A DNA stretch of 63,195 nt, filler included, from Anaerolineae bacterium (GTDB taxonomy: Bacteria; Chloroflexota; Anaerolineae; Epilineales; Epilineaceae), in assembly GCA_029262755.1 (NCBI GenBank). It is 4 parts of 4 records of this genome, joined end to end, with 100 filler letters (N's around TTAATTAATTAA, not from the genome) between each part and the next. Parts side by side here need not be neighbours in the genome. Positions count along the whole stretch, not along the records: positions 46,337 to 59,464 come from JAJCYU010000046.1; positions 59,565 to 63,195 come from JAJCYU010000048.1; 2 more parts are not named here. The stretch is one strand, 5' to 3'. The position numbers were made by a program. Shown one piece after another: positions 57,001 to 63,195 of this stretch (the stretch's first letter is position 1; every line of letters begins with the position of its first letter).

Positions 57001-60000
57001 CGCTCTTGGCGGTTGCTGAGTGCCACCTTGCTCTCGGCAATCTCGACGGCGCCGTTGCCGCGGCCGAGGCCGTGATCAAGGCCAGCCGGGCCGAGGATTC
57101 TGCGGGGCTGGAGTTGCTCGCACGTGCGCTGCAGGCCCGGGGCGATTGGGCGGCGGCGCGGTCTGCGCTAGAGAAGGGTCTACGCGTGGACGGCGCGGAT
57201 TCCGCGCCGCTGTACTTGCAGCGAGCGCGGCTCCACCTGGCTTCCGGCCGGCCAAACCTAGCGTGGCGCGACGCCCGGTGGGCCATCGAAGATGATGCGG
57301 AATATGCACCCGCCTACGTTCTTCGGGGACGGCTTGCGCTCGAGTTGGAGGGAGCGGCCGAGGCGCTCGCCGACCTCGATGCGGCCGTCGAGCTCGATCC
57401 GCTCTCCGGCTCCGCATGGGCGTGGCGCGGCCGCGCGAAGGAACTCGAAGGGGACATGAGCGAAGCGGAAGCCGATTGGGCCGAGGCCGAGGCCCTGCTC
57501 CCGGACCACGATCCGCTCCGCGACACGCTCAATGACTGGCGCCGCCGCGCAGGGTAGTGCTTCCGAATTGGGAATTGGTCGCGGCCGAGCCCGTATCTGC
57601 CGGTTTCGGCCCCATGGCAGCGACCATCCGGTCGTCACGCGACGGCTGCGCTGCGCGTCCTCCATGAACGATACCAGCAACCCCCACGTGCCGTCGTCGT
57701 CGAAAGGCTTGTATTCATGAATCCCCGCACCTACTGCCGCGGACTTGCGGCCAGCCTCATCGCGCTCTTCGTGTTTCTGTCGGGTGATACCCGTACCGAC
57801 GCACAGGCGCCGTTCGGCCTCACTGTTCGCCTTGCCGCCACCGCGCAAGACGCTACGCAGGCGGCAGGCGTCGACGTTCGCATGGCTTCACCATGGATCC
57901 GGTGGACGACCCTGCCGGAAATCGCCGTGACCGCGGAGCTGTGGCGCGGAGGCGAACGCGTCGCCACGACCACATCGGAGTCCGACGGCACGGGAAACGT
58001 CGTGCTCGGCCTCTTCGGGCCGATGGGGCCGGCGCGTGTGCAGGGCGGCGACGAGCTGCTCGTTCGTGCCGGCGAGGGCGAGGTCGAGCTGCGGCTTACG
58101 GCGCCGGATCTTGTGGCCGATGTCGACGTGCTTCGCGGCCGCGTCGTGGGTCGCGCTCCGGCCGACTCCTCGCTGACGCTCGCGCTCTGGCGCGCAGGCG
58201 CTCTCGTTTCCGAAGACCCTGTGCTAACCCGCACGTTGACCACGGACGGCAGCGGCCTGATCGATGTGGATCTCAGCAATGTCGGATTGCGTCCCGGAGA
58301 CGCCGGACACTTGATCGTCCGTGATGAGGACGGCCATCGCTTTGTCGCCGGGTTCACGGCTCTCGGCATTGAGGTTCAGCTCGGCAACACCTTCCTGACG
58401 GCCAGCGCGACGCAGGGCACCACCGTCACGTTGGCAATCGAACCCTCGCCCGATGGTGCCGCGCCGATCCAACGGCGCCTCGAAGCCGGCCTGCCCTTCG
58501 ACCAGGCCCCCGTGGCCAGCCGAGTTTCGATCGGCCTTCAACGGGGCGAGGGTGCGCCCAGCCCACTTGCTCCGGGCGATCGTCTGCGGGTTTCGCGCAC
58601 GGGTGGGTTGGTCACCTACGTCACGCAGAGGATCTCGTTACCCGCGATGGAAATCAATATCGTTTCGCGCGACGGCCATGTCCGCGGCACGGGACCCGTG
58701 AGCAGCAGCCTCGAGCTCGTGCTGAACGGCCCGCTGGGCGAATTGGTGCGGTCGACGGTCGAGACGGACGCCACGGGGACCTTCGACACGGTGGTCGACG
58801 CGGAACCGGGGCCCGGATGGCAAGCGACATTGCTGTGGGAGCAGGGGATCTTTCGTGTCCTTCGCTTCGGGGTCGTTCCTCAAGTCCAGGTGCGCGTGCA
58901 CACGTCGTCCGTGCGCGGGCTGAACCGTCCGCAAGCGCCTGTGAGCGCCACGTTGCATAGCGGAGGCAGCCATATCGGCACGTGGTCCACCGTGGCGGAT
59001 AGCCAGGGACGTTGGCAGCTCCAGTTGCGGGATGAGAGCGGCCAAGGTGTCGGCGACGAGCCGGGGCCGGCACATCGCGTGCGCCCGGGTGATGTACTCG
59101 AGATCGACCTCGCCGGCGGCGACCCGATCAACTTGGTCGTCCCACCGATGTCCGCCCGAAGTGATGCGGACGCGGAGACCGTCTCCGGAGCAGTGCCCCC
59201 GGGAACCCGATTGCAGCTCACGATCGACGGTGGATTAGACGGTACGCCGGGAAGCGAGCTCGAGCCGGTTCAAAATCCCGGCGGCCCCGCGCTCGTCGTG
59301 AAGCTCGATGCGGGAACGGACGGGCGCTACGTTGCGGATCTGGGCGCGCAGAGCGGCCCGGACGGGCAGCCCATCGATCTGGAACCACCCATGTTCGGCT
59401 CGCTCGTGATCACGCGCGACGACGGGCACCAATTCCTCTTGCGTTGGGCGCCGCTCTCGGTTCANNNNNNNNNNNNNNNNNNNNNNNNNNNNNNNNNNNN
59501 NNNNNNNNTTAATTAATTAANNNNNNNNNNNNNNNNNNNNNNNNNNNNNNNNNNNNNNNNNNNNACTTCTTCGCCGAGGCGTTCGCCTCGCACGCGGAGT
59601 TGGCGTGCATGCCGGTGGCCGGCGGTCCGGGTCAGACGCACGAGGTCATCGACGACGGCGCGCGCTGCAACACCGACCCCAGTCTTTTCAACGACGATTC
59701 CGCACGGCTCCTTCGGCCGCGCCGAGAGCCGCCCATGCCTAGGGCGCCACCTTCGGCTCCCTGAGATAGGCGACCCGCTTGATGTTGAGCAGGTTGGTAT
59801 AGGTCACGTTGTCGGTCGTCGAGTTGTTGCCGAACGTACCGCAGCCGAGGGTCAGCGACGGGATCAGACCGCTGGTCAAGCCGACAACGCCGTGGGAACC
59901 CGGGCTGTTGACCAGGATCCGGCTCGCGGGCATCAAGCGACTGTACTGCTGCACCCATGCGTCGTTCTTGGAGTGGATGATCGCGGTATGGCCGATACCC

Positions 60001-63000
60001 TCCAGCTGGAGTAACTGCGCGGAGATCTCCATGCCCTGCTGCTCATCTTCCACCGTGAACAGACTGAGCACGGGGATCATCTTCTCGCGAGCATAGATGT
60101 TTTCCGAGTGGACGCCCTTGGTCGGGACGACGATCAACCGGATCGGATAGTCTCTCTGGATGGACGTGAATTCGGCCACGTAGGACGGGTCCTTGCCGAT
60201 CAGGCGGCGACGAAAGCTGCTCCCGTCCGCGAGCACCGCCTTCTCGGTAAAGCGGGCGGTTTCCTCCGCATCTAGTACCGCGGCTCCCTGCTCTTGCAAG
60301 CTATTGACGAAGGCATCACGGATGGACGCCACGACCACCAGATTGTGCTCGGCGCCGCAGATCAAGCCGTTGTCGAAGGACTTGCTGAGTACGACGCTGG
60401 CGGCCGCCTGGTCCGCATCGGCATCGGAACAGATCAGGGCCGGCGCGTTGGCCGGCCCTACGCCGAGCGCCGGTGTCCCCGAGCTGTAGGCGGCCTTGAC
60501 CATGCTGGCGCCGCCGGTGGCCAGAATCAGGGACACCTTGTCATGCTGCATGAACAACTCCGTCTTCTTGCGCGAGCTGCGGTGTCGGACCCATTGCACG
60601 AGATGTTCGGGTGCGCCCTCGCTGCGGAGGATCTGTTGTACCAACGGACCGACCTCTTCGGCGACGTCGCGCGCGGTGCGGTGAAAGCTGAGAATCAGCG
60701 CATTGCGCGACTTTATACAGATCAACGCCTTGAAGACCGCGGTGGCGACCGGGTTGGTGATCGGAATCATGCCGAACACGATGCCGACCGGCGCAGCGAA
60801 GTCGTGGACGAGGCGGTCCTGATCGCGGGCGACGATGCCACTGGCCGGTCGTCCGAGCAGGGATTCCAGCACGCCGAGCGCGGCCAAGTTGTTCTTGGCG
60901 GTCTTGTCGTGAACATTGCCCATACGCGTGACACGCACGGCTAGTTCGGCGTGTTCCTGCGCCTTCTCGGCAAAGCCTTGCGCAATCGCGGTCAGCAGCG
61001 CATCGATCTTGTCTTCCGGCCAGTCGGCGATCACCTTCTGCGCCTCGAGGGCCTGATCGATCAGCTCGTCAACCTCGCTGTCGTTGCCGGACACAATCAT
61101 GCTGGAAAGCAGCTTGTTGGCGGACCGCAGTTTCATAGCTGCCCCCTGACCCAACGCGGAAACCAGGGCTAAGCCGACGCGCGGGTCTTCGCGCGTCAGT
61201 GTCTCCAGCACCTCCGTGCTCAGCTTGCGGCACTCGACATCGCTGTGTGCATAGGCGCTGGCCGAGCGCGGCTGGCTGTCGAGCAGGGCCAGCTCACCCA
61301 TCACCGCACCCTTTTCGAGAAAGCCCAGAACGCCGTCCGAATCGAGTTCAGGGTGCGGCAGTTCCACGCGCACGGTGCCTTCGTCGATGAAATAGCAGCA
61401 ATCGCCCTCCTCGCCGGCATTGAAGATGCAACTGCCCGCTGCAAATCGGACCGCTTCAAGATATTGCTCCAGGCTCTGCAAGTCCTTGACTTGCAGGGAA
61501 ACCAAGGATTCATGGATCGACACATCATTCTCCTCAAGTTGTGTAAACGATTTCCTCTTGCATCGAATCGCTATCCAGTTCCGGCCGCCCGCGGGTATTG
61601 GACAGCGCGCGCACCGATCCGGTCAGCACTTCCGCCGCCCCTTGTTTGATCTTCAGGACCCGCACTCGCCCCTTGGCGCGTACCGAGGCCGTCCGCCGGC
61701 CCCGGTGGAACACCGACTCGCCAAAATGCTTGCCTTCGGACAAGGTGCCAATCAGCTCTTCCACACCGTTCTCGTTTTGAAGTACTTCAACTTCGCCCTG
61801 CTGGATGATGTACATGCAGTCGCCGGCTTCACCTTGTTTTACGATCGTTTGCCCGGGCTCATACAGGCTCTCCTCGATCCCGAGGGTTTGATCGGGACGC
61901 ACGGCCACGATATCTCGGCCAAAGAATGGCGCTACACACCAGTCGAGCAGGGTGCGCACGCGACGGTCCCAGGTCGGCAGATAGATCAGCATGAACGCGC
62001 GCCAGATGAGCCAGGCGGCAAAGCCCTTGAATTGAACTCTGTCCAGCAACTGTCCCACGGCGCGCCGGCTGCCCAGGGAACAGGCATCTCCCAGTCCGGT
62101 GAAACGGTAGGGTCTTGGAGGCTGGGCAAGGCTCAACAAGCGCAGGTTCCTGCCGATCTGGGTGCCGGCATTCATCGCGAACGTCGCCAGTGGCGGACAA
62201 TAGCCGCCGCGCGGATGGGGGACCGCGGCACAGTCGCCGCCGGCCCAGATGTTGTCGTGCCCCGGGAGTCTCAGGTAGGGGTCCGTGATCAGCCGGCCGC
62301 CGTCGTCGCGCTCGCATTCCAGTTGATCGAGCAGCGGGGATTGGGCGGTTCCGGTACAGCTGATGATGGTCCGCGTGGAGATCGTCTCGCCGCTACTGAA
62401 CATGACCTCTTCAGCGGTGGCCGATTCCACGCGCGTTCCCAGGTGCAGCTCAAGACCGGACTCCTGCACGAATCTCTCTGCATAGTTCACCAGTCCGGGA
62501 AAACGTTCCCTCAGTTCAGGCAGGATGTGTTCGCCGTTGTGCACGAGGACCACGCGCACCTCTTCATGGTCGATGCGTGCATACTCCTTGCGGGTCAGCA
62601 CGCGGAAGAAATCGACAAGCTCGGTGGCCACCTCGACGCCCGCATAGTTGCCGCCGGCCACGACGAAGGTCAGCAGGCGCCGGCGTTCGCGTTCGTCCGC
62701 TTCGATTTCAGCCAGATCGAGCATGGTCAGGATATGGCTGCGCAGGCGAAAACAGTCCCAATAGGCTTTCAGGCGAAAGGTGTGCTCGGCAATACCCGAA
62801 TAGCGCGAAAGATCGTCCACGGAGCCGAGCGAGACGACCAGGTGATCGTAGGAAAGCACATACTCCCGCCCATCCAGCGCGCGGCGGGTGGTGACGGTCT
62901 GGGCGGCCGTGTCGATGGACTCGATTTCCGCTTGGTGAAGCGCCGCGCCGGCAAACAATCTACGTGCCGGACTGGTGATGTTGAATGGTTGTATATGCCC

Positions 63001-63195
63001 GGTCAAGGTTTCAGCGATCAGGCCATGAAAGGTGTGATAGTTGTTGCGGTCGACAATGGTGACTTCGACACGACCTTTTTTTATGGAAGTCCTCAAGCTA
63101 CGAACCAGCCGGGTAGCGACATAGCCGCCTCCCAGACACACGATGCGGGTCGGGCTCTTCACCAACATTCTCCTGTTCCGTGGATGCCACTTGTA

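What a model noticed while it worked through the whole genome (the two positions that open the first line are those of the whole stretch)
59739..63162. Operon of two redox enzymes each fused to a cyclic-nucleotide-binding domain (NDH-2::CNB and CNB::acylating aldehyde deh [...]
Two adjacent, co-directional genes encode a type II NADH:quinone oxidoreductase with a C-terminal cNMP-binding domain and a CoA-acylating aldehyde dehydrogenase with an N-terminal cNMP-binding domain. I read this as direct, post-translational gating of respiratory NADH oxidation and of an aldehyde/acyl-CoA redox step by cAMP or cGMP. New would be a cyclic-nucleotide-regulated NDH-2, a family of over a thousand metagenomic proteins for which I found no paper.
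Evidence so far: g00490 (C48:1970-3598,-): Pyr_redox_2 6-320 (1e-31) + cNMP_binding 434-509 (1e-19), 27% to M. tuberculosis Ndh; g00489 (C48:175-1959,-): cNMP_binding 25-112 (9e-18) + Aldedh, 33% to C. kluyveri SucD, 38% to AdhE N-half. Both CNB domains keep the phosphate-binding cassette (FGE...RTASV; GELAL...RSASA; call 65). 1206 proteins E<=1e-3, the 120 best all with PF07992+PF00027. Matches reaching past residue 500, i.e. with the CNB domain, in 11 of 300 other sampled Chloroflexota genomes at 34-44% identity. No paper holds 'NDH-2' with 'cyclic nucleotide-binding'; the genome has 11 Guanylate_cyc-domain genes and 10 cNMP_binding genes.
(Added by a program. Inside this text positions count along the whole contig: they may not be those of the stretch shown here. 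"Call 12" and the like, gene names such as g00115 and contig names such as C1 are that model's own, and its searches are not shown. The text may have been shortened before it was handed on; [...] marks where a part breaks off. The agent that wrote the report below was given it as the finding of a first reader that could run no searches.)

Follow-up and report, generated by a model that had tools for sequence, protein, structure and literature searches.

The report
Two cyclic-nucleotide-sensing redox enzymes in one operon
Two neighbouring genes encode a membrane flavoprotein and an aldehyde dehydrogenase that each carry a built-in sensor for cyclic AMP or GMP, so a signalling molecule probably switches both enzymes directly; nobody has tested either enzyme family.

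Summary
The last contig of the window (59565-63195) carries two co-directional genes 10 nt apart, with a Shine-Dalgarno site between them. Gene A (61534-63168, minus) has an NDH-2 fold and a C-terminal cNMP-binding (CNB) domain. Gene B (59739-61523, minus) has an N-terminal CNB domain and a CoA-acylating aldehyde dehydrogenase. Both phosphate-binding cassettes are canonical and conserved across relatives.

- A belongs to a divergent clade. It keeps the FAD, GD and GxxxxGxE motifs and the membrane helices. It has lost the WxxG tryptophan and the AQxAx[QR] quinone motif, and it changes two residues at the adenosine ribose of NADH. "Respiratory NADH oxidation" is therefore not secure; NADPH or another acceptor is possible.
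- The A-B pairing recurs in Ignavibacteriota, Planctomycetota and Thermomicrobiales, in either gene order and often beside a CNB::patatin lipase. It is not universal.
- CNB fused to a pyridine-nucleotide oxidoreductase was catalogued in 2007, and databases hold hundreds of both fusions. I found no functional paper.

Whether the contig belongs to this bin remains unsettled. Verdict: a real, uncharacterised new variant of ligand-gated enzymes. Interest is moderate.

The parts
61534..63168 (-). Gene A: NDH-2-fold FAD flavoprotein with a C-terminal cNMP-binding domain (544 aa)
   Evidence: ORF; Pfam. AlphaFold model has pLDDT 84.8 and pTM 0.77. All Foldseek hits listed down to rank 25 are NDH-2 structures, with TM-score on the target 0.74-0.89.
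63115..63132 (-). FAD dinucleotide motif G13-x-G15-x-x-A18
   Evidence: Sequence. G13 and G15 are 13/13 in the clade. The GxGxxA variant occurs in 9% of NDH-2s (PMC5299459).
62632..62655 (-). Second dinucleotide motif G172-G-N174-Y-A-G177-V-E179. The middle glycine of GxGxxGxE is Asn.
   Evidence: One search aligns N174 with position 164 of C. thermarum NDH-2. In A1 the position is N in 26/35 and G in 9/35. E179 is invariant. The G164E variant raises Km for NADH from 29 uM to above 1 mM (PMC5220320).
62539..62541 (-). His210, at the position of the Glu/Asp (E198 of C. thermarum) that hydrogen-bonds the adenine ribose of NADH
   Evidence: Alignment. His in 34/35 of A1. Role of E198 from PMC5220320.
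62350..62361 (-). S270-x-x-G273, in place of the NDH-2 WxxG motif
   Evidence: Alignment. S270 is invariant in A1. W is 0/13 in the CNB clade and 61/64 in CNB-less relatives. W is 99% conserved in 1762 NDH-2s (PMC5299459).
62233..62238 (-). G311-D312 (GD motif at the FAD)
   Evidence: Invariant.
62170..62187 (-). A328-T-F-A331-M-N333, in place of the AQxAxQ / AQxAxR / APxAxQ quinone-site motif
   Evidence: Q at 329 is 0/13 in the clade and 64/64 in the others; R at 333 is 0/13 against 62/64.
61921..62025 (-). Two C-terminal helices (residues 382-396 and 400-416) matching the NDH-2 membrane-anchor domain; the second runs into the CNB barrel
   Evidence: Pfam NDH2_C at 363-419, 28.3 bits. Helices seen in the model.
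61591..61878 (-). CNB domain of A: beta-barrel 431-508, helices 509-518 and 520-526
61681..61725 (-). Phosphate-binding cassette of A, F482-G-E-S-V-F-H-R-G-R-R492-T-A-S-V496. It is one residue shorter than in all 34 aligned relatives.
   Evidence: The short form is also present in Logan contigs of runs X1 and X3. A roughly 92%-alike relative in run X2 has 3 extra bases at 61712.
61524..61533 (-). 10-nt spacer between A and B, with a GGAG Shine-Dalgarno site at 61530-61533
59739..61523 (-). Gene B: N-terminal CNB domain fused to a CoA-acylating aldehyde dehydrogenase (594 aa, GTG start)
   Evidence: The N-terminus MSIH matches the 85%-identical relative P0122. Model has pLDDT 84.6.
61188..61457 (-). 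CNB domain of B (residues 23-112)
61254..61298 (-). Phosphate-binding cassette of B, G76-E-L-A-L-L-D-S-Q-P-R86-S-A-S-A90, of canonical length
   Evidence: G76 and E77 invariant, R86 at 90% or more. Compared with the consensus motifs in Table 1 of PMC2246266.
61095..61184 (-). Helix of 30 residues (114-143) joining the CNB domain to the catalytic domain of B
   Evidence: Secondary structure of the model.
59757..61085 (-). Acylating aldehyde dehydrogenase domain of B (residues 147-589); the catalytic Cys389 is encoded at 60357-60359
   Evidence: Cys aligned with the Cys of 5j78. C389 is invariant in 31/31.
59567..59764 (+). 3' end of a convergent open frame that runs off the contig and overlaps the end of B by 26 nt; no family found

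Best explanation
The contig carries a two-gene operon for two enzymes that each sense a cyclic nucleotide directly.

Gene A is a membrane-peripheral FAD flavoprotein with the NDH-2 fold. Its last membrane-anchor helix runs straight into a C-terminal CNB domain. Gene B is a CoA-acylating aldehyde dehydrogenase of the AdhE-N / EutE / SucD kind, with catalytic Cys389. Its N-terminal CNB domain is joined to the catalytic domain by a 30-residue helix.

Proposed mechanism: cAMP (or cGMP) binds each phosphate-binding cassette. It moves the helices that flank the barrel and so changes catalysis. In A this would act through the membrane-anchor and acceptor-entry helices. In B it would act through the long linker helix.

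Proposed joint reaction: B turns aldehyde + CoA + NAD(P)+ into acyl-CoA + NAD(P)H. A passes those electrons to a membrane acceptor, most likely a quinone. One signal would then open a path from an aldehyde to the electron-transport chain without new transcription.

Shown here: the architectures, the motif conservation, the operon, and the recurrence of the pairing and of CNB::patatin neighbours.

Inferred, not shown: the ligand, the sign of the regulation, the electron donor (NADPH or dual specificity is plausible) and the acceptor.
For: Architecture and fold.

The cassettes are kept under selection.
- A family: G483 35/35, E484 34/35, R492 34/35, T493 32/35, A494 35/35.
- B family: G76 and E77 invariant, R86 at 90% or more.
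- Both resemble the canonical consensus motifs in Table 1 of PMC2246266.
- The closest solved CNB domains are from PKG, PKA and HCN channels.

Operon: a 10-nt spacer with GGAG. A contig of a roughly 92%-alike relative from another study also spans both genes (record 10).

The pairing recurs, in both gene orders:
- L033, Thermomicrobiales: A, then B, then CNB::patatin.
- L005, Planctomycetota: B, then A, with a convergent CNB::patatin.
- L002, Ignavibacteriota: B, then A.
- L024, Anaerolineae: a dehydrogenase 3' end directly upstream of a CNB-less clade member.

On the tree of the flavoprotein part, all adjacent cases fall in one starred clade: 5 of 13 rows, against 0 of 66 outside it.

A works with partner NAD(P)-dependent dehydrogenases. 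7 of the 120 best relatives are 910-916 aa; of the 3 I scanned, all are ApbA/PanE-like reductase::NDH-2-like::CNB fusions.

The bin is rich in the signalling system: 12 class III cyclase matches, and CNB domains on 10 open frames. These include MscS::CNB, CNB::NTE-patatin and CNB::methyltransferase.

A is the only NDH2_C match in the bin, and complex I is present.

Precedents, recalled from memory and not from a call:
- the enzymology of mycobacterial Pat (CNB::GNAT), whose NCBIfam model matches both CNB domains;
- the cAMP-gated EAL enzyme Bd1971, which appears among the solved hits of B's CNB domain.
Against: - No biochemical datum exists for either family.
- A lacks two hallmark NDH-2 motifs (WxxG, AQxAx[QR]) and alters two NADH-ribose contacts. 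Donor and acceptor are therefore open.
- The window's own A has a phosphate-binding cassette one residue shorter than all 34 aligned relatives, which could weaken or change binding.
- The pairing is not obligate. In 10 genomes with NDH-2-like::CNB and no adjacent B, 0 of 10 had a CNB::dehydrogenase elsewhere (genome completeness not given).
- B-family loci L081, L082 and L094 have no A within their flanks.
- In the phylum sample, the one other genome with a full-length B relative (G119) has only a CNB-less NDH-2-like gene, on another contig.
- B is reversible in known relatives, so it might instead consume NAD(P)H.
- Only 27 nt lie upstream of A, so neither a promoter nor further operon members can be seen.
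Confidence: 0.5

Rival explanations
1. A is not a respiratory NADH:quinone oxidoreductase. It would be an NDH-2-derived flavoprotein with a new donor and/or acceptor. Examples are an NADPH-specific reductase of a lipid-soluble or isoprenoid- or aldehyde-derived substrate, or a protective FSP1-like quinone or lipid-radical reductase. The CNB domain would still gate it.
For: - 0/13 rows of the CNB clade keep the WxxG tryptophan or the Gln and Arg/Gln of AQxAx[QR]. CNB-less relatives keep them in 61/64, 64/64 and 62/64 rows.
- N174 and H210 replace the two NADH-ribose contacts. G164E in C. thermarum cuts activity to about 1%.
- NDH2_C scores only 28.3 bits against a cut-off of 27.7, and is not reported for L003, L004 and L011.
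- FSP1 appears among the sequence and fold hits.
- Neighbours are lipid- or isoprenoid-related in several loci: CNB::patatin (L005, L011, L033), MpaB/Lcp-type oxygenase directly upstream (L004, L008), an acyltransferase (L011) and a fatty-acid desaturase (L002).
Against: - All Foldseek hits listed down to rank 25 are bona fide NDH-2s.
- The GxxxxGxE glutamate, the GD motif and both FAD glycines are invariant.
- Two C-terminal helices are modelled where NDH-2 has its membrane anchor.
- No alternative substrate is indicated by any direct evidence.
Confidence: 0.3
2. The CNB domains do not sense cAMP or cGMP. They would bind another ligand (the fold also binds haem, 2-oxoglutarate and nucleosides in other families), or serve only for dimerisation or localisation.
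For: - The CNB fold has non-cNMP ligands. PMC2246266 states that it evolved as a scaffold for a wide variety of ligands.
- The abstract of PMC10959531, seen in the listing, reports nucleoside-binding trypanosome PKA.
- The window's A has a cassette one residue shorter than its relatives.
Against: - Both cassettes keep the Gly-Glu pair and the Arg-[ST]-Ala that contact ribose and phosphate in canonical binders, and they are near-invariant across 35 and 31 sequences.
- The best solved matches are cNMP-binding domains of PKG, PKA and HCN.
- The bin encodes 12 class III cyclase matches.
Confidence: 0.12
3. The contig does not belong to this genome (mis-binned), or the operon arrived by recent horizontal transfer. 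The link drawn to the bin's cyclases and other CNB proteins would then be irrelevant.
For: - GC is 0.617 against 0.668; only 4.8% of 3.6-kb windows of the bin are lower.
- In 300 other genomes of the phylum, the best A match is 44% identical and only one genome has a full-length B relative, at 51%. Relatives at 57-61% carry labels of other phyla.
- On the tree, A sits in an 8-row clade spanning seven phyla.
Against: - Tetranucleotide distance to the bin is unremarkable: 13.75% of random windows are as far or farther.
- Estimated contamination of the bin is 0.72%.
- The family's phylogeny does not follow taxonomy anywhere, so foreign-looking relatives are expected.
- Chloroflexota members of the clade exist: L004 Herpetosiphonaceae, L035, L024.
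- This rival concerns origin, not what the genes do.
Confidence: 0.35

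Closest known systems
Type II NADH:quinone oxidoreductase (NDH-2; C. thermarum 4NWZ, mycobacterial 9MQY, S. aureus 5NA1, yeast Ndi1)
   Same: - Same fold: all Foldseek hits listed down to rank 25.
- FAD GxGxxA motif, GD motif and the catalytic Glu of GxGxxGxE.
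- Two C-terminal helices at the site of the membrane anchor.
   Different: - No WxxG tryptophan and no AQxAxQ / AQxAxR / APxAxQ motif.
- Asn in place of the middle Gly of the NADH motif.
- His in place of the NADH-selecting Glu/Asp.
- An added C-terminal CNB domain.
EF-hand-bearing NDH-2s of plants and fungi (Ca2+-regulated external NAD(P)H dehydrogenases)
   Same: An NDH-2-type enzyme carrying a second-messenger-binding module. PMC5299459 notes EF-hand insertions that were proposed to regulate activity in a calcium-dependent manner.
   Different: - The messenger is Ca2+, not a nucleotide.
- The module is an insertion between the GD motif and helix 7, not a C-terminal domain.
- These enzymes are eukaryotic.
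Mycobacterial protein acetyltransferase Pat (CNB::GNAT; NCBIfam NF058543)
   Same: A bacterial metabolic enzyme with an N-terminal CNB domain. The Pat model matches both CNB domains here (6.3e-5 for A, 6.3e-9 for B). It acts on acyl-CoA metabolism. That cAMP relieves its autoinhibition is recalled from memory, not taken from a call.
   Different: The catalytic domain is a GNAT acetyltransferase, not a redox enzyme.
Bd1971 of Bdellovibrio (CNB::EAL phosphodiesterase; PDB 6HQ2-6HQ7)
   Same: A CNB domain fused N-terminally to an enzyme. It is among the solved hits of B's CNB domain (1.3e-9).
   Different: The output domain hydrolyses c-di-GMP. Its function is recalled from memory, not tested here.
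'Bact_Pyrredox' family of Kannan et al. 2007 (PMC2246266, Table 1, no. 13)
   Same: A CNB domain fused to a pyridine nucleotide-disulphide oxidoreductase in bacteria, catalogued from sequence only (38 NR / 70 GOS sequences).
   Different: - It has tandem CNB domains.
- Its cassette consensus GEMGLISGRRRGATVRA differs from the GEMAVFxxxRRTATVRA of this family.
- It is probably the thioredoxin-reductase-like class (PF13738 clusters), not the NDH-2 fold.
CoA-acylating aldehyde dehydrogenases (AdhE N-half, EutE/PduP, SucD, SauS)
   Same: B aligns over residues 147-589 with the catalytic Cys conserved.
   Different: - B scores below every equivalog cut-off: 437 against 951, 398 against 620, 300 against 600 bits.
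- It carries an N-terminal CNB domain and a 30-residue linker helix.
- Substrate and cofactor are unknown.

Membership tests
NDH-2 (features from Marreiros et al. 2017, PMC5299459, passages read) | First dinucleotide motif GxGxxG (or GxGxxA in 9%) for FAD | tested here: met
   G13-G-G15-Y-V-A18. G13 and G15 are 13/13 in the clade.
NDH-2 | GD motif at the FAD | tested here: met
   G311 and D312 are invariant.
NDH-2 | Second motif GxGxxGxE, including the catalytic Glu | tested here: inconclusive
   The window has G172-G-N174-Y-A-G177-V-E179. The Glu and the outer glycines are invariant. The middle Gly is Asn in the window and in 26/35 relatives. A Glu at this position cripples NADH binding in C. 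thermarum. The effect of Asn is unknown.
NDH-2 | WxxG motif (W 99%, G 100% of 1762 NDH-2s) near the adenine of NADH | tested here: not met
   The window has S270-x-x-G273. W is 0/13 in the CNB clade and 0/4 in the second CNB clade, against 61/64 in CNB-less relatives.
NDH-2 | Quinone-site motif AQxAxQ, AQxAxR or APxAxQ (87% of NDH-2s together) | tested here: not met
   The window has A328-T-F-A-M-N333. Q329 is 0/13 and R/Q333 is 0/13 in the clade; the others have AQxAxR in 62-64 of 64 rows.
NDH-2 | [quoted passage not shown] | tested here: met
   NDH2_C at 363-419, 28.3 bits, just over the 27.7 cut-off. Helices 382-396 and 400-416 in the model. Amphipathicity was not computed.
NDH-2 | Overall fold | tested here: met
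   All Foldseek hits listed down to rank 25 are NDH-2 structures, with TM-score on the target 0.74-0.89.
NDH-2 | NADH:quinone oxidoreductase activity | not testable with these tools
   Needs an enzyme assay.
Canonical cNMP-binding CNB domain | Eight-stranded barrel with a phosphate-binding cassette G-E-...-R-[ST]-A | tested here: met
   A: G483, E484, R492, T493, A494. B: G76, E77, R86, S87, A88. Pfam gives 1.5e-19 and 2.3e-17. A's cassette is one residue short.
Canonical cNMP-binding CNB domain | Binding of cAMP or cGMP | not testable with these tools
   Needs a binding assay. cAMP against cGMP cannot be told from the sequence: the R-T of A is shared by HCN and PKG types.
CoA-acylating aldehyde dehydrogenase (AdhE-N / EutE / SucD type) | Full-length alignment to family models and a conserved catalytic Cys | tested here: met
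   NF010378 at 1.2e-130 over 147-589; TIGR02518 at 4.9e-119. 5j78 at 1.5e-96 with the Cys aligned. C389 invariant in 31/31.
CoA-acylating aldehyde dehydrogenase | Equivalog-level identity (acetaldehyde, succinate semialdehyde or sulfoacetaldehyde specific) | tested here: not met
   All scores are below the curated cut-offs. The substrate is not assigned.

The most novel reading that the evidence does not exclude
A recurrent, horizontally mobile set of cyclic-nucleotide-gated enzymes: an NDH-2-derived membrane flavoprotein with remodelled donor and acceptor pockets, a CoA-acylating aldehyde dehydrogenase, and often an NTE/patatin lipase. Together they would form a post-translational switch. On a cAMP or cGMP pulse, the switch opens a catabolic route (lipid or aldehyde to acyl-CoA) and at once couples its reducing equivalents to the membrane electron-transport chain. 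This would be the first second-messenger-gated entry point into a prokaryotic respiratory chain. The loss of the adenine-stacking tryptophan in both independent CNB-bearing clades would then be part of the gating mechanism.
Probability: 0.2. Interest if true: 0.8.

Novelty: new variant of a known kind. Interest (0 to 1): 0.55.

Why it matters
Many soil and sediment bacteria encode a dozen or more nucleotide cyclases, yet few direct effectors are known beyond CRP-type regulators. This bin has 12 cyclase matches.

If these two families are truly gated by cAMP or cGMP, a second messenger acts directly on redox and acyl-CoA metabolism, and possibly on electron entry into the membrane chain. That would be control on a timescale that transcription cannot reach.

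Both families are large. The ESM Atlas holds at least 14 clusters of NDH-2-like::CNB with 60-140 members each, and one CNB::aldehyde dehydrogenase cluster of 401 members. The NDH-2-like::CNB family also occurs in cultured Nocardioides, so the idea can be tested at the bench.

The remodelled substrate pockets also warn against annotating this clade as 'NADH dehydrogenase'.

Tried and rejected
- **Complex prediction.** I submitted A (full length) with B residues 141-594. The verdict was 'no answer' (score 0.00, mark 0.32). This is not evidence for or against binding.
- **RNA evidence.** No RNA holder was listed for the contig, so nothing can be said on expression.
- **Closest relatives' context.** P0001 (89% to A, 10.6-kb contig) and P0122 (85% to B, 11.5-kb contig) could not be read in their genomic context.
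- **Contig-length coincidences.** Equal contig lengths in the two hit lists hint at further co-located pairs: P0048/P0222 at 1,140,078; P0029/P0205 at 18,006; P0062/P0199 at 7,378; P0047/P0128 at 9,417. These were not verified and are leads only.
- **Neighbours of CNB::dehydrogenase where A is absent.** L081, L082 and L084 have a Lumazine_bd_2 protein next to it. L085 has a CRP regulator. None suggested a substrate.
- **Promoter and terminator scan of the contig.** 0 promoter-like sites and 1 terminator-like site inside gene A, which is no more than in shuffles.
- **Tree.** The careful tree search did not finish in 300 s, so the quick IQ-TREE tree was used.
- **Literature searches that found nothing relevant:**
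  - 'type II NADH' + 'cyclic nucleotide-binding domain': 0 papers.
  - 'NDH-2' + 'cNMP': 0.
  - 'cyclic nucleotide-binding' + 'NADH dehydrogenase' + 'fused' + 'patatin': 0.
  - 'NDH-2' + 'cyclic nucleotide': 3, unrelated by title.
  - 'aldehyde dehydrogenase' + 'cyclic nucleotide-binding domain' + 'N-terminal': 4, unrelated by title and abstract.
  - 'cyclic nucleotide-binding' + 'pyridine nucleotide-disulphide oxidoreductase': 3, unrelated by title and abstract start.
  - 'cNMP-binding' + 'NADH dehydrogenase' + 'domain architecture': 0.
  - Subscription-only papers are not in that library. This includes the NDH-2 family survey cited as reference 1 of PMC5299459.
- **Not attempted:** the cofactor preference of B, and cAMP against cGMP specificity. 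The sequence alone is not decisive for either.

Full report
**What is in the sequence**

The window is a chain of contigs joined by N runs. The finding lies on the last one, 59565-63195 (3631 b), which is contig C48 of a bin of 5.06 Mb in 428 contigs, 84% complete. Two long open frames fill it on the minus strand.
- A is 61534-63168, 544 aa.
- B is 59739-61523, 594 aa, with a GTG start. Its N-terminus MSIH matches the 85%-identical relative P0122.

A's TGA stop is followed by GGAGAATGAT and then B's GTG. That is a 10-nt spacer with a Shine-Dalgarno site. Only 27 nt lie upstream of A. Downstream of B there is only the tail of a convergent frame with no family match.

Pfam gives these domains:
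- A: Pyr_redox_2 at 8-322, NDH2_C at 363-419 (28.3 bits, cut-off 27.7) and cNMP_binding at 436-511.
- B: cNMP_binding at 25-112 and Aldedh.

NCBIfam places B's residues 147-589 with the AdhE N-half and acetylating acetaldehyde dehydrogenases, but below every equivalog cut-off.

- The 120 best relatives all carry both domains.
- 11 of 300 other genomes of the phylum have matches running past residue 500, at 34-44% identity. 56 weaker matches were not listed in that call.
- The bin has 13 CNB matches in 10 frames and 12 cyclase matches.

**Is the sequence sound?**

Logan contigs of the probable source run (X1) cover the whole contig with one differing letter.

A contig from a different study (X2, roughly 92% alike) spans parts of both genes. 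The pair is therefore adjacent in a relative too.

The window's A has a phosphate-binding cassette one residue shorter than all 34 aligned relatives (FGE-SVF against FGEMAVF). The short form is also present in X1 and in a 242-nt contig of a third study (X3). The X2 relative has three extra bases exactly there, at 61712. The deletion is therefore real and not an assembly slip. Its effect on binding is unknown.

**The sensor domains**

Both CNB domains keep the residues that hold ribose and phosphate in canonical binders.
- In 35 sequences of A's family: G483 35/35, E484 34/35, R492 34/35, T493 32/35, A494 35/35.
- In 31 sequences of B's family: G76 and E77 are invariant and R86 is at 90% or more.

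Both cassettes resemble the consensus motifs that Kannan et al. tabulate for cNMP-binding families (PMC2246266, Table 1, passages read). The nearest solved domains are from PKG, PKA and HCN channels. cAMP and cGMP cannot be told apart from this.

The models are confident: A has pLDDT 84.8 and pTM 0.77; B has 84.6 and 0.72.
- In A, the second C-terminal helix (400-416) leads directly into the barrel (431-508), which is followed by two helices.
- In B, the barrel is followed by a 30-residue helix (114-143) that leads into the catalytic domain.

These are the elements that move in known CNB switches; that statement is established knowledge, recalled from memory. Coordinates and PAE were not available to me, so domain contacts are not shown.

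**What kind of enzyme is A?**

By fold it is an NDH-2. All Foldseek hits listed down to rank 25 are NDH-2 structures, with TM-score on the target 0.74-0.89.

I tested the family's defining motifs as listed for 1762 NDH-2s by Marreiros et al. (PMC5299459, passages read).

Kept:
- the FAD motif GxGxxA;
- the GD pair;
- the outer glycines and the catalytic Glu of GxGxxGxE;
- two C-terminal helices.

Lost:
- The WxxG tryptophan is Ser270.
- The quinone-site motif AQxAxQ / AQxAxR / APxAxQ is ATFAMN.

This is a property of the whole clade. Among 81 aligned flavoprotein sequences (the window's A plus the 80 fetched loci), the 13-row clade that holds the window has W in 0/13 and Gln in 0/13. The 64 CNB-less relatives have W in 61/64 and AQxAxR in 62-64 of 64.

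Two residues that touch the adenine-proximal ribose of NADH in C. thermarum NDH-2 also differ.
- G164 is Asn174 here (N in 26/35, G in 9/35).
- E198 is His210 (34/35).

Blaza et al. (PMC5220320, passages read) report the following.
- G164E raises the Km for NADH from 29 uM to above 1 mM.
- Glu or Asp at the E198 position goes with NADH-only use.

My inference is that the adenosine pocket is rebuilt. NADPH or dual specificity is plausible. His210 with Arg214 (26/35) recalls the His/Arg clusters of NADPH-using relatives; that comparison is recalled from memory, not tested. The acceptor site is altered as well.

I therefore file A as NDH-2-like, not as a proven NADH:quinone oxidoreductase. In the bin it is the only NDH2_C match, and complex I is present.

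**Evolution of the fusion**

I built a quick maximum-likelihood tree from the flavoprotein part only. It has 79 rows. L058 and L074 were dropped for covering fewer than 330 residues.

CNB-bearing proteins fall in two places.
- A starred clade of 13 rows: 12 with CNB, plus the long-branched, CNB-less L024.
- A separate group of 4 Verrucomicrobiota proteins that carry CNB plus CBS domains.

Starred branches force at least two changes of state. The window's protein sits in an 8-row clade (support 98) that spans seven phyla, so the family moves horizontally.

Both CNB-bearing groups lack the WxxG tryptophan (0/13 and 0/4). That makes only two independent events. I record it as unexplained.

**Gene neighbourhood**

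A genome-contig scan returned 80 loci. Of the 80 loci, 15 encode a CNB domain.

A CNB::acylating aldehyde dehydrogenase lies next to the flavoprotein gene in 3 of those 15.
- L033 (Thermomicrobiales): A, then B, then CNB::patatin, all on one strand.
- L005 (Planctomycetota): B, then A, with a convergent CNB::patatin.
- L002 (Ignavibacteriota): B, then A.

In addition, L024 (Anaerolineae) has a dehydrogenase 3' end directly upstream of its CNB-less clade member. Counting the window, that is 5 of 13 rows in the clade and 0 of 66 outside it.

Other recurring neighbours:
- A CNB::patatin lipase lies within two genes in 3 of 15 loci (L005, L011, L033).
- An MpaB/Lcp-type oxygenase lies directly upstream in 2 of 15 (L004, L008).
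- 7 of the 120 best relatives of A are 910-916 aa. The three I scanned are ApbA/PanE-like reductase::NDH-2-like::CNB fusions.

The flavoprotein thus repeatedly sits beside, or is fused to, an NAD(P)-dependent dehydrogenase.

The pairing is not obligate.
- In the 10 genomes where no dehydrogenase is adjacent, 0 of 10 have a CNB::dehydrogenase elsewhere. Two have a 30%-identical CNB-less one.
- B-family loci L081, L082 and L094 show no A in their flanks.
- In the phylum sample, only 1 of 300 other genomes (G119) has a full-length B relative. Its NDH-2-like gene lacks CNB and lies on another contig.
- None of the 11 genomes whose NDH-2-like match runs past residue 500 has a full-length relative of B.

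**Does the contig belong to the bin?**

- Against: GC is 0.617 against 0.668, lower than all but 4.8% of 3.6-kb windows. No close relative was found in 300 genomes of the phylum.
- For: tetranucleotide distance is unremarkable, with 13.75% of random windows as far. Estimated contamination is 0.72%. The family's tree ignores taxonomy anyway.

I leave this open, at about one in three that the contig is foreign to the bin. It affects the link to the bin's cyclases, not the reading of the genes.

If the contig does belong, it joins a rich effector set:
- MscS::CNB;
- CRP;
- two tandem-CNB regulators;
- CNB::NTE-patatin;
- CNB::bPH;
- an MpaB/Lcp oxygenase followed by CNB::methyltransferase.

**Mechanism proposed**

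Each enzyme binds cAMP or cGMP at its own CNB domain and is switched allosterically. B makes acyl-CoA and NAD(P)H from an aldehyde. A passes the electrons to a membrane acceptor.

- Shown: architecture, motif conservation, operon, recurrence of the neighbourhood.
- Inferred: ligand, sign of regulation, donor, acceptor, and the coupling through NAD(P)H.

My rough odds:
- cNMP binding by both domains: about 0.75.
- Allosteric control of catalysis: about 0.6.
- The coupled aldehyde-to-membrane route: about 0.4.

**Comparison with what is known**

Enzymes gated by a fused CNB domain are known (recalled from memory): mycobacterial Pat, Bd1971 and NTE/patatin esterases. Pat's model and Bd1971's structure appear. 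NDH-2s with a second-messenger module are also known: the EF-hand, Ca2+-binding forms.

A CNB fused to a pyridine nucleotide-disulphide oxidoreductase was catalogued from sequence in 2007. That family has tandem CNB domains and a different cassette, and is probably the thioredoxin-reductase-like class.

Databases already hold both fusions in number, under generic names. Seven literature searches found no paper on either fusion. Subscription journals are not covered by that library.

I rate this a new variant of a known kind, with moderate interest.

Noticed in passing
L004:4835-5995 and L008:4705-5946; own genome L101:63-857 (G000 contig C36): An MpaB/Lcp-type oxygenase domain (PF09995) lies directly upstream of NDH-2-like::CNB in two loci; in L004 the two genes overlap by 4 nt. 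In the window's own bin the same domain lies directly upstream of a CNB::methyltransferase. This oxygenase family therefore repeatedly sits beside CNB-fused enzymes. Its relatives cleave isoprenoid double bonds to aldehydes (recalled from memory), which could link it to the aldehyde dehydrogenase.
   Followed up: partly
L005:8105-9916(-), L011:3000-4703, L033 about 8700-10590; own genome L099:241-2535(-): CNB::patatin (NTE-like) lipases lie within two genes of NDH-2-like::CNB in 3 of 15 loci. The bin's own copy has 2 CNB domains, an NTE P-loop and a patatin domain (764 aa) and is on a different contig (C155).
   Followed up: partly
P0008, P0012, P0014, P0018, P0019, P0033, P0034: Proteins of about 911 aa. 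The three I scanned are triple fusions: ApbA/PanE-like reductase (4-343), NDH-2-like (378-791) and CNB (808-884). Where named, they are from Gemmatimonadales.
   Followed up: partly
L006, L007, L009, L010 (Verrucomicrobiota): A second, independent clade of NDH-2 + CNB + CBS proteins of 663-690 aa. L006 showed no CBS hit. The clade keeps AQxAxR but has also lost the WxxG tryptophan. In L010 the gene sits inside a pentose-phosphate cluster (6PGD, G6PD, 6-phosphogluconolactonase, transketolase), which fits an NADPH link.
   Followed up: no
L003:4110-5948: A 612-aa protein with an unassigned N-terminal 370 residues, an EF-hand pair (373-432) and a CNB domain (507-584), directly upstream of NDH-2-like::CNB. 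It may integrate Ca2+ and cNMP signals.
   Followed up: no
L019:631-5643: In a Dormiibacterota MAG, NDH-2-like::CNB lies between an amine-oxidase-like flavoprotein and a succinate-dehydrogenase/fumarate-reductase-type flavoprotein, all on one strand.
   Followed up: no
window 59567-59764 (+): A convergent open frame runs off the contig start and overlaps the 3' end of gene B by 26 nt. It has no Pfam match, and it is uncertain whether it is a real gene.
   Followed up: partly
own genome L098 (G000 contig C359, 4800-10800): Two paralogous proteins of about 500 aa, each with two CNB domains and a Crp-type HTH. They are separated by a glycosyltransferase and flanked by ribose-5-phosphate isomerase and a NUDIX hydrolase.
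   Followed up: no
G000 as a whole: Contig GC in the bin ranges down to 0.37 (1st percentile) and 0.52 (5th percentile), against a median of 0.675. Some contigs of the bin are therefore probably foreign, despite the 0.72% contamination estimate.
   Followed up: no
L001:7600-9684: The 694-aa protein downstream of NDH-2-like::CNB has only a sub-threshold match to the RoxA-like cytochrome c motif (25.3 bits, cut-off 26.7, over 18 residues). This is too weak to use.
   Followed up: no
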